Source of the DNA: Giardia intestinalis
Lineage: Eukaryota
DNA: 64,000 nt
NCBI GenBank assembly: GCA_000002435.2
Contig: CM018789.1
Strand: one strand, 5' to 3'
Shown in pieces: positions 54,001 through 56,877 of the stretch. Numbering within the stretch: position 1 is the stretch's first letter; the number at the start of each line of letters is the position of its first letter. Made by a program: the position numbers.

Positions 54001-56877
54001 GAGAGCACTCTCATGGGAATAATGGCATACATGGCCCCCGAGGTGCTCCTCCGTAATGAGACCAGCCCCGCCTCCGATATGTGGAGCCTCGGGGTCATCA
54101 TTTATGAGCTTACTACTCTGAGGAGACCGGACTTCCTAGAAGGTAAAGACCCAAAAGACGTCTTCGTCGACGGGTGGACACCGGACCTGAGCGGTGTCGC
54201 CGATGGCTTTATGAAGAGTGTTCTGGAGAGGATATTCGTGCTGGAGCCAAAGGAAAGACTGACAACTGAGGAGCTGTGCAAGATGCTCACTGCGATTGAC
54301 GTCCCAGTTGGTGAGCTGGGGGGTCAGTGCGTGATGCTGAAGTACGAATGCGGCTCCCTGAAGACTGCTCTGAACAGTGCTAATGCTAGGATTGCTATTC
54401 TTGAGGCGGCCCTCGACGCCAGGTCTGCTGAGACTGCCTCTCTCAAAGACATTCTCGAGACGAAGGCTGCCAAGATCGATGCTCTGGAACAGGAGCTCAC
54501 AGCTAAGTCCGCTAGGATCGACGCGCTCGAGAACCAGGGTAAAGAGCATCTGGCCACGATGAGAGCGCTAGAGGCCAAGGTCATGCAACTTAGTGACAGG
54601 ATGGATGCAGCCGACCCCCGCAGTTTTCTCCTGCTTCCCAAGCTGATACGCGCTGCGCACACGAATAACACAGAGACCGTCCGGGTGCTACTTGAAGAAA
54701 GAGTCTGCACCGGCCAGCGTGACAAGCAGGGGATGACGGCCTTCATGCACGCGGCCCAGCAGGGACACGGTAGGCCTGTTGAGCTGCTTGTTGAGAAGGA
54801 GAAGGGTCTCAAGGATAAAAACGGCTGGACCGCGCTCATGCACGCTGCACACAACGGCCATCCCGAGATAGTTAAGATCATCGCCCCTCACGAGCATGGT
54901 CTTCAAGACTTACATGGCCACACTGCTCTGATGATCGCCGCACAGCAGGGGAGCCTTGAAGTGGTAAAGCTCCTTCTTGATCATGAGAAGGGGCTGAGGG
55001 ACAAGCAACATCACAACGCCCTATACCATGCTCTCGAGAATGGGCACTTAGGGGTTGCCGAGATGATCATCCCCTACGAGGACCCAACCGATGGGAACGG
55101 CGTCACGGCACTTATGAGAGCCGCAGCCAGAGGAGACACTGAAATGGTAAGGCTGCTTATACCAGTCCAGAAAGGAATGAAAGACAAGGACGGTAACACA
55201 GCCTTCATGCACGCCCTCAAGAACAAGCACATAGACACGGGGGTGGTGCTCGGCAAACATGAAGACTCATCCTGGACCCCGCTCATGCACGCTGCTGCGG
55301 ACGGAGGCATCGAGGCGGTCAAGAAGCACCTCTCAGACAAGGACAAGAAGAACAACACCGGTGAGACTGCGCTGATGATTGCTGCCAGAGCGAGGCACAG
55401 GAACATAGTAGAGCTCCTCGATCCCACAGATGAGAAGGGCGTCACTGCCCTCATGCGAGCTGCCGATAGAAACGACCCAGCAGCTGTGAAGGCACTTGCT
55501 CCCCTTCAGACAGGGCAGAAAACGACGGGGAATGTCAGGATAGGCAAGCTGAGTATGCACGGTGGAACGGCGCTGATGAGGGCAGTAGCATATGGCCACG
55601 CGAAGATAGTGGAAATACTCCTAGAGGAAGAGGCAGGCATGCAGGATATTTTTGGACGGACAGCCCTCATGCTTGCAGCAGAGAGCAACAATTCAGATTG
55701 TGTTAGACTACTAGTAAAGAAGGAGGGCGGGATGCAGACAAGTTATGGTTCGACAGCCCTTACGATAGCAGCACAGCGTGGCCACCTAGAGTGTGTCAAG
55801 CTACTATTAGAGAAGGAGGGCGGGATGCAGAATGAGGATGGCGAAACAGCCCTCATGATAGCAGCAGAGGGAAGCCATGCAGACTGTGTTAAGCTCCTAC
55901 TAGAAAAGGAAGGAAGTATGAGAGATAACAATGGACAAACAGCTCTTGTGACTGCAGCAGAGAAAGGTCACACAAAGATAGTGGAAATACTCCTGGAGAA
56001 GGAGGGAGGCCTGAGGGATAATGGTGGATGGACAGCCCTCATGAGTGCAGCAGCGAATGGCCACGCAGAGATAGTGGAGCTTCTCTTAGAGAAAGAGGGG
56101 GGCATGAGAGATAGGAATGGTAAGACGGCCCTTATGATAGCAGCAGAGAAGGGTCACCCAGAGTGCATTAAGCTTCTGCTGGAGAAGGAGGGTGGCATGA
56201 AAAAGAATGATTTCTTTAGTAATGGTGGGACAGCCCTCATGTGTGCAGCACGTAACGGCCGCCCAGAATGTGTCAGACTATTATTAGATAAGGAGGGAGG
56301 AATGAAAGGTAGTAACGGTGGGACCGCCCTTATGATAGCAGCGCAGAACGGCCACTCAGATTGCGTCGAAATATTATTAGAGAAGGAGGGCGGCATGCAA
56401 GAAGGTGGTTTCTTTAGTAACGGATGGACCGCCCTCATGTGGGCAGTCTCCTGCAGCCAGATAGAGTGCGCGAGACTCCTTGCAGAGAAGGAGAAGAACA
56501 TAAACAGGAGGAAACTCTTGGAGATAGTCAACCGGAGAGGCAGTAACGAGATGATGGCCCTCCTCTCAGAATAGTCAGAGTAAACAGCATCATCTCTACT
56601 AGCCTCCACGCCTCACAGCCCCGCCACGCAGCAGGACTCCGGGGTCAGCAGCCTCTAGCGCGGGAGCGAACGCGGCTCAGGGAAGTCGGCAAGCCGGCTC
56701 CGTAACCTCGGGAAAAGGAGTGGCTCTGACGGCGCGCCGGGTCAGAACTGGAACGGACGCGGGGATCCCGACTGTTTACTAGAAACACAGCGTCGCGAGG
56801 GCCGCACCCGGCGCTGGCGCGACGTGATTTCTGCCCAGTGCCACGACCGTCACCGTGAAGCGATCCGCCGAAGCCCT

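What the first reader, a model, noticed from the sequence alone, without database searches (positions are those of the whole stretch)
56575..56640. Sharp junction: unique coding DNA joins the middle of the LSU rRNA about 45 bp after a gene's poly(A) signal
The ankyrin pseudokinase stop codon (56572-56574) is followed by AGTAAAC (56579-56585). Roughly 45 nt later, at about 56629, the sequence becomes identical to LSU position about 1480 of the complete downstream unit (equivalent to 62194). GC content jumps from about 50 to more than 75 percent. There is no promoter, SSU, 5.8S or LSU 5' half for this first unit, so it is a breakpoint in the rDNA array rather than an array start. The few bases flanking the join (...cctcacagccccgccacGCAGCAGGACTCC... 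versus the intact ...cgtaccgaccGCAGCAGGACTCC...) define the breakpoint to within about 3 nt.
Basis: seen in the sequence. Interest (0 to 1): 0.55.

Follow-up and report, generated by a model that had tools for sequence, protein, structure and literature searches.

The report
Giardia gene-to-rDNA array boundary
This is the inner edge of a ribosomal-RNA gene array at the end of a Giardia chromosome, where the last protein-coding gene runs straight into the middle of a large-subunit rRNA gene; the join is real and old, and the arrangement has already been described for this parasite.

Summary
From 56627 onward the window is identical to 62192 onward: 1315 nt without a gap, at the 5565-bp rDNA unit spacing. 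There is no similarity to the left of 56627. The join lies 52 nt after the TAG stop of a kinase/ankyrin (NEK) gene and 41 nt after its AGTAAAC signal. It corresponds to LSU nt 1473 of 2561.

The window is Giardia intestinalis WB; three neighbouring proteins are identical to WB proteins. The layout is a VSP gene, then the kinase/ankyrin gene, then rDNA. This is the published Giardia "telomere gene unit" followed by rRNA genes.

New here: the same join occurs in an independent assembly of another assemblage (P15, assemblage E). It is found on three contig ends, and one of them is syntenic with this window. All copies share the gene's 3' flank and enter the LSU within 12 nt of each other. This excludes an assembly chimera and a recent break.

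WB versus P15 identity is 66% in the gene's 3' end and about 99% in the rDNA. The truncated unit is therefore kept uniform with the array, right up to the join. P15 retains 9-12 more LSU bases, so the original breakpoint was slightly 5' of 56627.

Verdict: a real, ancient boundary of a known kind. Low novelty.

The parts
46838..52648 (-). Variant-specific surface protein (VSP) gene, first member of the telomere gene unit. It contains 21.2 perfect copies of a 228-bp repeat at 47777-52602.
   Evidence: ORF. Pfam PF03302 VSP, E = 2.8e-68. Tandem repeat at 100% matches.
53230..56574 (+). NEK-type kinase plus ankyrin-repeat gene of 1114 aa, including the TAG stop. It is the last protein-coding gene before the rDNA. 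It is a predicted pseudokinase: LAVQEI replaces VAIK, and HRN replaces HRD.
   Evidence: ORF and translation. Pfam Pkinase and Ank families. Motifs compared with paralogues.
56575..56609 (+). Conserved 3' flank of the gene, TCAGAGTAAACAGC..CATCTCTAC..TAGCCTCCAC. It includes the AGTAAAC poly(A)-signal-like heptamer at 56579-56585.
   Evidence: Shared with three P15 copies. 86% identity between WB and P15.
56610..56626 (+). 17-nt spacer, GCCTCACAGCCCCGCCA, that is not identical to the LSU. It stands in place of a 43-nt stretch in P15, whose last 12 nt are LSU sequence.
   Evidence: Alignments. No significant similarity to the LSU upstream region.
56627..57715 (+). 5'-truncated LSU rRNA gene, LSU nt 1473-2561, Rfam model positions about 1855-3401. 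This is the first, incomplete rDNA unit.
   Evidence: Identity to 62192 onward. Rfam hits and alignments.
57716..59031 (+). Intergenic spacer of the rDNA. The promoter of the first complete unit presumably lies here (inferred, not mapped).
   Evidence: Lies between the LSU end and the SSU start. Repeated at 63281 onward with only single-base indels.
59032..60483 (+). SSU rRNA gene of the first complete unit.
   Evidence: Rfam RF01960, 797 bits.
60525..60662 (+). 5.8S rRNA. This is a weak match, below Rfam's gathering score.
   Evidence: Rfam RF00002, 19.1 bits, E = 0.006.
60720..63280 (+). Complete LSU rRNA gene of 2561 nt. Position 62192 is the equivalent of the join. Position 62183 is the equivalent of the older join kept in P15.
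   Evidence: Rfam. BLAST of L012 starts at 62183.
63281..64000 (+). Start of the next intergenic spacer. The array runs off the end of the window.
   Evidence: Direct repeats with 58xxx coordinates. No TAGGG run anywhere in the window.

Best explanation
This is the centromere-side edge of a subtelomeric rDNA array on the 1.485-Mb chromosome of Giardia intestinalis WB. A VSP gene and a kinase/ankyrin (NEK) gene, together the 'telomere gene unit', are followed 52 nt after the stop codon by an rDNA unit that starts in the middle of the LSU gene. Complete 5565-bp units follow.

Inferred history, in four steps:
1. One illegitimate (non-homologous) join between the 3' flank of the NEK gene and a broken rDNA unit happened before assemblages A and E diverged. 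It occurred at about LSU nt 1464.
2. The join has since been inherited, and it has been copied to several chromosome ends together with the NEK 3' end.
3. The rDNA side is kept identical to the rest of the array by gene conversion or unequal exchange, up to within a few bases of the join. The gene side diverges freely.
4. In WB the first 9 LSU bases next to the join have decayed or been deleted, so identity now starts at 56627.

The truncated unit has no promoter and cannot make a functional rRNA. It is a structural leftover that marks where array-wide recombination stops. The NEK gene keeps its own stop codon and poly(A) signal.

Shown here: the anatomy, the conservation of the join, and the jump in divergence across it. 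Inferred: a single origin, the joining mechanism, and the conversion limit.
For: Anatomy:
- 1315-nt perfect identity starting at 56627 = 62192, with no similarity to the left.
- Rfam finds a partial LSU, then a complete SSU and LSU.

Organism: window proteins are identical to WB proteins KAE8301893.1, KAE8301898.1 and KAE8301899.1, which lie on a 1,485,438-bp contig.

Architecture: VSP plus a kinase/ankyrin gene, then rRNA genes. This matches the telomere gene unit as summarised in PMC10999387.

Same join in P15:
- L014 is syntenic with the window; ClpB, NEK509 and a hypothetical gene align at 89%. Its NEK gene is followed by the same 3' flank and then LSU.
- L012 shows the same arrangement.
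- L016 shows it too, with only a NEK 3' remnant before the join.
- Multiple alignments put all four entries into the LSU within 12 nt of each other.

Divergence jump, WB versus P15: 66% in the last 300 nt of NEK, 86% in the 3' flank, and 98.7-99.3% in the rDNA. P15 truncated copies are 100% identical to the P15 intact LSU over 430 nt.

L012 retains CGTACCGACCACC of the LSU. Shuffle tests find nothing LSU-like further left.
Against: - No reads were available, so physical continuity in WB itself rests on the assembly plus the P15 parallels.
- The exact NEK and VSP proteins of this window are absent from the protein collection. I could therefore not find a second WB-lineage assembly that spans the join.
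- Short-read assemblies of related isolates stop about 330 bp beyond the hypothetical gene next to the VSP (44625-46487), at about the VSP gene's 3' end.
- No telomere repeats lie in the window, so the subtelomeric position is inferred from the literature, not shown.
- The inference that WB lost 9 LSU bases rests on about 15 aligned nucleotides.
- The joining mechanism is not recoverable from the sequence.
- VSP-NEK pairs in DH and GS (L001, L013, L015) are not followed by rDNA. Not every such gene pair sits at an array edge.
Confidence: 0.85

Rival explanations
1. Assembly chimera: a unique contig end was wrongly joined to rDNA reads in the long-read assembly.
For: rDNA is a high-copy repeat at several chromosome ends. 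The second spacer copy differs from the first by about 19 single-base indels, typical of imperfectly polished long-read sequence. No reads could be checked.
Against: The same gene-flank-to-LSU join is present on three contigs of an independent assembly of a different assemblage, P15 (GCA_000182665.1). One of them is syntenic with this window. There is no sequence overlap at the join that could mislead an assembler.
Confidence: 0.02
2. A recent break and repair in the WB laboratory lineage. Giardia rDNA-bearing chromosome ends rearrange often in culture, and this could be one such event.
For: The literature reports frequent rearrangement of rDNA-bearing subtelomeres, estimated at about 1% per division (PMC3091692; PMC4985590).
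Against: The join is shared with assemblage E at the syntenic chromosome end, where neighbouring genes are only 89% identical. The join therefore predates that split. The reported rearrangements concern repeat number, not this edge.
Confidence: 0.04
3. A recurrent fragile site: the LSU near nt 1464-1473 is a hotspot, and independent breaks have joined it to different chromosome ends several times.
For: Four junctions fall within 12 nt of one another in the LSU.
Against: All four also share the same 35-40 nt of non-rDNA flank and the same NEK 3' end to the left of the join. This is expected for copies of one event and not for independent events. The small differences in the entry point look like decay: transition-rich changes in L016 and small deletions in WB.
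Confidence: 0.05
4. A retro-copy: a 5'-truncated LSU fragment inserted by a non-LTR retrotransposon mechanism such as GilT/GilM or an R2-like element.
For: 5' truncation is the hallmark of target-primed reverse transcription, and Giardia has telomere-associated non-LTR elements (cited in PMC7000408).
Against: The truncated LSU continues without interruption into the untranscribed spacer and the next full unit, with no substitutions. It is therefore genomic array DNA, not a cDNA of rRNA. There is no poly(A) tract or telomere repeat at either side, and no open reading frame for a reverse transcriptase.
Confidence: 0.01

Closest known systems
Giardia telomere gene unit (cysteine-rich/VSP gene, protein kinase gene, ankyrin gene) followed by rRNA genes and TAGGG repeats. 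Source: Upcroft et al. 1997 and 2010 and Prabhu et al. 2007, as summarised in PMC10999387.
   Same: Same organism, same gene content and same order: a VSP, then kinase and ankyrin domains, then rDNA. The unit is conserved between isolates and present at more than one chromosome end.
   Different: Here kinase and ankyrin are one 1114-aa ORF rather than two genes, and the VSP is divergently oriented (tandem in P15). The telomere repeats are outside the window. I could not read the primary papers, so I do not know whether the exact LSU coordinate of the join was published.
Telomere-to-rDNA junctions of Giardia (Adam, Nash and Wellems 1991, Mol Cell Biol 11:3326). Details are from my own memory of the abstract; the paper is cited in PMC1635262 and PMC10999387.
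   Same: An abrupt transition at a non-boundary position inside an rDNA unit, at a chromosome end.
   Different: That is the outer edge of the array, where rDNA meets TAGGG repeats at the start of the LSU or in the spacer. This is the inner edge, where unique DNA meets mid-LSU. No TAGGG repeats occur here.
Subtelomeric rDNA in other eukaryotes: Encephalitozoon cuniculi, Magnaporthe oryzae, Yarrowia lipolytica, Giardia muris (PMC1635262, PMC4704409, PMC8515841, PMC7641422).
   Same: rRNA genes placed next to telomeres, with concerted evolution among units on different ends.
   Different: Those reports mostly concern whole units or the telomere-side junction. The feature here is a conserved 5'-truncated first unit abutting a specific gene.

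Membership tests
Giardia telomere gene unit plus subtelomeric rDNA | A cysteine-rich/VSP gene in the unit | tested here: met
   46838-52648 (-) matches Pfam PF03302 VSP, E = 2.8e-68.
Giardia telomere gene unit plus subtelomeric rDNA | Protein kinase and ankyrin coding sequence next to the VSP | tested here: met
   53230-56574 (+) carries Pkinase at aa 105-351 and many Ank repeats. It is a single ORF rather than two genes.
Giardia telomere gene unit plus subtelomeric rDNA | rRNA genes follow the unit | tested here: met
   Partial LSU from 56627, then SSU, 5.8S and LSU.
Giardia telomere gene unit plus subtelomeric rDNA | (TAGGG)n telomere repeats distal to the rDNA | not testable with these tools
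   No run of TAGGG or CCCTA in the window. The window ends inside the array, and the rest of the chromosome could not be fetched.
Giardia telomere gene unit plus subtelomeric rDNA | Arrangement conserved between isolates and chromosome ends | tested here: met
   Three P15 contig ends carry the same NEK 3' flank joined to mid-LSU. L014 is syntenic with the window.
Giardia telomere gene unit plus subtelomeric rDNA | The organism is Giardia intestinalis | tested here: met
   Three window proteins are identical to WB (ATCC 50803) proteins on the 1,485,438-bp contig.
Complete eukaryotic rDNA unit | SSU, 5.8S and a full LSU behind a spacer and promoter | tested here: not met
   For the first unit (56627-57715) only Rfam model positions about 1855-3401 of the LSU are present. 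The second unit is complete.
Non-LTR retrotransposon-type 5'-truncated insertion | The copy ends at the 3' end of the transcript, with a poly(A) tract or target-site features | tested here: not met
   The copy runs on through the spacer into the next unit with no substitutions. There is no A-tract.
De novo telomere addition (chromosome healing) site | Telomere repeats directly at the break | tested here: not met
   No TAGGG or CCCTA repeats at or near 56627.

The most novel reading that the evidence does not exclude
The join may be more than a fossil. Its position is held within 12 nt across assemblages A and E and across at least three P15 chromosome ends, while sequence identity jumps from about 66% to about 99% across it. 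It could therefore be a selected boundary element. One version: it stops rDNA gene conversion and Pol I chromatin from spreading into the last Pol II gene. Another: it terminates read-through from the NEK gene. On this reading the few unconverted LSU bases next to the join would preserve an ancestral LSU state, namely the ACC present in P15 but absent from the WB functional LSU.
Probability: 0.08. Interest if true: 0.4.

Novelty: already known. Interest (0 to 1): 0.2.

Why it matters
The finding is of limited importance. It confirms that the WB long-read assembly places this chromosome end correctly.

It also gives a base-level anchor for the inner edge of a Giardia rDNA array: the NEK 3' flank joined to LSU nt 1464-1473. 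That anchor could serve for end-specific PCR, for counting arrays, or for following the well-known size changes of rDNA-bearing chromosomes.

The sharp change in A-versus-E divergence at the join is a clean small example of concerted evolution stopping at an array edge. It does not reveal a new kind of element or mechanism.

Tried and rejected
- Exact look-ups of the window's NEK protein (five alternative starts) and of the VSP found nothing in the collection.
- A homology search with the NEK C-terminal 200 aa found no near-identical fragment; the best hit was 46% identical. No second WB-lineage contig across the join could therefore be obtained.
- Look-up of a spurious ORF inside the LSU, meant to pull out rDNA contigs with varied neighbours, found nothing on record.
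- WB paralogues P0002 and P0008 could not be located on contigs.
- Short-read (Logan) assemblies of related isolates all stop about 330 bp beyond the hypothetical gene next to the VSP (44625-46487), at about the VSP gene's 3' end, so they say nothing about the join.
- Two scans of JGI metagenome contigs gave 0 hits. One used a 33-nt LSU word and one used a gapped junction pattern covering both the WB and P15 variants.
- VSP-NEK loci from DH (L001) and GS (L013, L015) are not followed by rDNA. They are paralogous gene pairs, not array edges.
- I tested whether LSU-derived sequence extends further left of the join, in both P15 and WB. Local alignment scores were no better than shuffles.
- Rfam's forced alignment matched 8 nt of the unique flank (UCCACGCC) to the eukaryotic LSU consensus. 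I reject this as chance, because Giardia's own LSU does not have that sequence there.
- The primary papers could not be retrieved: Upcroft 1997, Prabhu 2007, Adam 1991 and 1992, Arkhipova 2001, Adam 2001, Lagunas-Rangel 2023.

Full report
**1. The observation**

The stop codon TAG lies at 56572-56574. The heptamer AGTAAAC lies at 56579-56585. From 56627 the sequence is identical to 62192 onward, at a spacing of 5565 bp. This covers 1315 nt ungapped; over 1791 aligned nt there are no substitutions and only single-base indels, all in the spacer. Left of 56627 only 1 of 15 positions matches, so the edge is sharp.

Rfam places the following features:
- a partial LSU at 56663-57714 (model 1891-3399 of 3401);
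- SSU at 59032-60483;
- a complete LSU at 60742-63280.

With permissive settings the LSU starts at 60720 and a weak 5.8S lies at 60525-60662. The join therefore equals LSU nt 1473 of 2561, or Rfam model position about 1855. It falls inside the conserved block CCGUACC..CCGCAGCAGG and not at the edge of an expansion segment.

GC rises from 0.50 to about 0.65 at the join. It passes 0.75 only from about 57000.

**2. What surrounds the join**

- The gene ending at 56574 is an 1114-aa ORF with a protein kinase domain and many ankyrin repeats. It lacks the VAIK lysine (LAVQEI) and the HRD aspartate (HRN), so it is predicted to be catalytically dead.
- Upstream, on the other strand, lies a VSP gene at 46838-52648. 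It carries 21.2 perfect copies of a 228-bp repeat.
- Three neighbouring proteins are identical to Giardia intestinalis WB proteins KAE8301893.1, KAE8301898.1 and KAE8301899.1. These lie on a 1,485,438-bp contig of the WB assembly.
- The window contains no TAGGG repeat and ends inside the array.

**3. Comparison with the literature**

A 2024 review describes Giardia chromosome ends as culminating in a "telomere gene unit". This unit has a cysteine-rich/VSP gene, a protein kinase gene and an ankyrin gene. It is followed by rRNA genes and telomere repeats. The review cites Upcroft et al. 1997 and 2010 and Prabhu et al. 2007 (PMC10999387).

The WB reference paper states that 18S, 5.8S and 28S genes lie at most chromosome ends (PMC7000408). 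The window fits this description gene for gene. The primary papers could not be retrieved. I therefore cannot say whether the exact LSU coordinate has been published.

**4. Independent copies of the same join**

The window's own NEK and VSP proteins are not in the protein collection. Homologues from the P15 isolate (assemblage E, GCA_000182665.1) led to three contig ends:

- L014 (ACVC01000017.1) is syntenic with the window. Its ClpB, a 509-aa NEK and a hypothetical gene align to window 40973-46495 at 89%. A VSP and an 1157-aa NEK gene follow. Then come TAA, TCAGAGTAAACAGCGACCATCTCTACTTTAGCCTCCAC, 43 nt, and LSU sequence from ..CCGACCACCGCAGCAGGTCTCC.
- L012 (ACVC01000481.1) has a VSP, an 1145-aa NEK, the same flank, and LSU sequence starting at CGTACCGACCACCGCAGCAGG. 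This corresponds to window 62183 and is 98.4% identical over 492 nt.
- L016 (ACVC01000074.1) has a full NEK gene followed by a remnant of about 380 nt of a NEK 3' end. The same flank comes next, then LSU from CCGCAGCAGG. The contig stops 33 nt later.

In the multiple alignment the stop region, AGTAAAC and the next 25-30 nt are nearly invariant. All four copies enter the LSU within 12 nt of one another. Because the left flanks are homologous, these are copies of one event, not repeated breaks at a hotspot.

The reverse arm of a fold-back at the end of L014 supplies the intact P15 LSU. It reads GCCGTACCGACCACCGCAGCAGGT.

**5. What this implies**

- It is not a chimera. A different isolate, sequenced and assembled independently, has the same join, including at the syntenic chromosome end.
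- It is old. The neighbouring single-copy genes differ by 11% between WB and P15.
- There is concerted evolution up to the join. WB versus P15 identity is 66% in the last 300 nt of NEK, 86% in the 3' flank and 98.7-99.3% in the rDNA. Each truncated copy is identical to its own strain's intact LSU: 100% over 430 nt in P15, and no substitutions in WB.
- The original breakpoint was slightly 5' of 56627.
  - L012 keeps CGTACCGACCACC of the LSU, L014 keeps it with two substitutions, and L016 keeps a decayed version.
  - WB has only CCGCCA in its place.
  - Nothing LSU-like lies further left, so the ancestral join is at about window-equivalent 62182/62183, LSU nt about 1464.
  - The WB remnant resembles the P15-type CCGACCACC more than the WB intact CCGACC. 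This hints that the WB functional LSU lost ACC after the join formed, and that conversion never reached the last few bases. That hint rests on about 15 nt and is tentative.

**6. How it works**

The truncated unit lacks a promoter, SSU, 5.8S and 57% of the LSU, so it cannot yield a functional rRNA. It is a structural remnant.

The NEK gene retains its stop codon and the AGTAAAC heptamer. From general knowledge of Giardia mRNAs, AGTRAAY is the poly(A) signal, and the transcript end is expected before the join. This was not tested here.

The array beyond the join offers homology with the other rDNA-bearing ends. That homology is the accepted basis for the frequent size changes of these chromosomes (PMC3091692; PMC4985590). 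The join marks where that exchange stops.

The joining mechanism was illegitimate recombination or repair of a broken end. It cannot be recovered from the sequence, because no microhomology is assessable without the ancestral flank.

**7. Rivals**

- An assembly chimera is excluded by the P15 copies.
- A recent break is excluded by the P15 copies.
- A hotspot with independent events does not fit the shared left flank.
- A retro-copy is excluded because the copy runs on through the untranscribed spacer into the next unit.
- A selected boundary function cannot be excluded, but nothing here requires it.

**8. Verdict**

The feature is the known junction between the Giardia telomere gene unit and a subtelomeric rDNA array.

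The added value is threefold: a base-level definition of the join, evidence that it is ancient and shared across assemblages and chromosome ends, and evidence that rDNA homogenisation stops within a few bases of it. Novelty and interest are low.

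Noticed in passing
window 47777-52602 (inside the VSP gene at 46838-52648, minus strand): There are 21.2 tandem copies of a 228-bp (76-aa) unit at 100% identity inside a 1937-aa VSP. This exact protein is not in the protein collection. Short-read assemblies of related isolates stop about 330 bp beyond the adjacent hypothetical gene (44625-46487), at about the VSP gene's 3' end.
   Followed up: partly
window 57939-58411 versus 63505-64000: The two copies of the rDNA spacer differ by about 19 single-base indels, mostly in G or C runs, and by no substitutions. 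This looks like residual homopolymer error in a long-read assembly rather than real unit heterogeneity.
   Followed up: no
window 53230-56574: The last gene before the rDNA lacks the catalytic lysine (LAVQEI) and aspartate (HRN), although its DFG motif is intact. WB paralogues P0002 and P0005, on the 1.97-Mb and 1.54-Mb contigs, keep both residues. They share an almost identical C-terminus (..NRRKLL..MMALLSE), which suggests the same gene family sits on other WB chromosomes, possibly at other ends.
   Followed up: partly
L014 13947-14552 (P15 contig ACVC01000017.1): About 440 nt into the truncated LSU, the contig folds back on itself at about 13992 and runs out as the reverse complement of an intact LSU. 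This is either a palindromic assembly artefact or a real inverted rDNA duplication at that chromosome end.
   Followed up: no
L012 7086-7144 (P15 contig ACVC01000481.1): The LSU match stops at 7085. The last 59 nt (GGTTTAGCAGACTTTAATGATCC...) are AT-richer and match nothing in the window. This could be an insertion in the truncated LSU or a chimeric contig end.
   Followed up: partly
L016 13592-14043 (P15 contig ACVC01000074.1): A full 1196-aa NEK gene is followed by about 70 nt of GC-rich sequence and then a fragment of about 380 nt of another NEK 3' end, which has a premature TAG. Only after that comes the LSU join. The join therefore travels with the NEK 3' end even when the rest of that gene is lost.
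   Followed up: partly
window 62183-62195 versus the P15 intact LSU: The WB functional LSU reads CGTACCGACC-GCAGCAGGA, where P15 reads CGTACCGACCACCGCAGCAGGT. This is a 3-nt indel plus one substitution in a conserved core region. The P15 length matches the eukaryotic consensus in Rfam.
   Followed up: no
window 60525-60662: The 5.8S rRNA scores only 19 bits against Rfam RF00002, whose gathering score is 42. It is missed at default thresholds, which reflects how divergent and short the Giardia 5.8S is.
   Followed up: no
window 52936-54395 versus L001 2133-3594 (DH isolate, AHGT01000153.1): The intergenic region and kinase domain of the NEK gene are 82% identical to a VSP-NEK locus of the A2 isolate DH that is not followed by rDNA. 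The 5' part of the unit is therefore duplicated independently of the rDNA join.
   Followed up: partly
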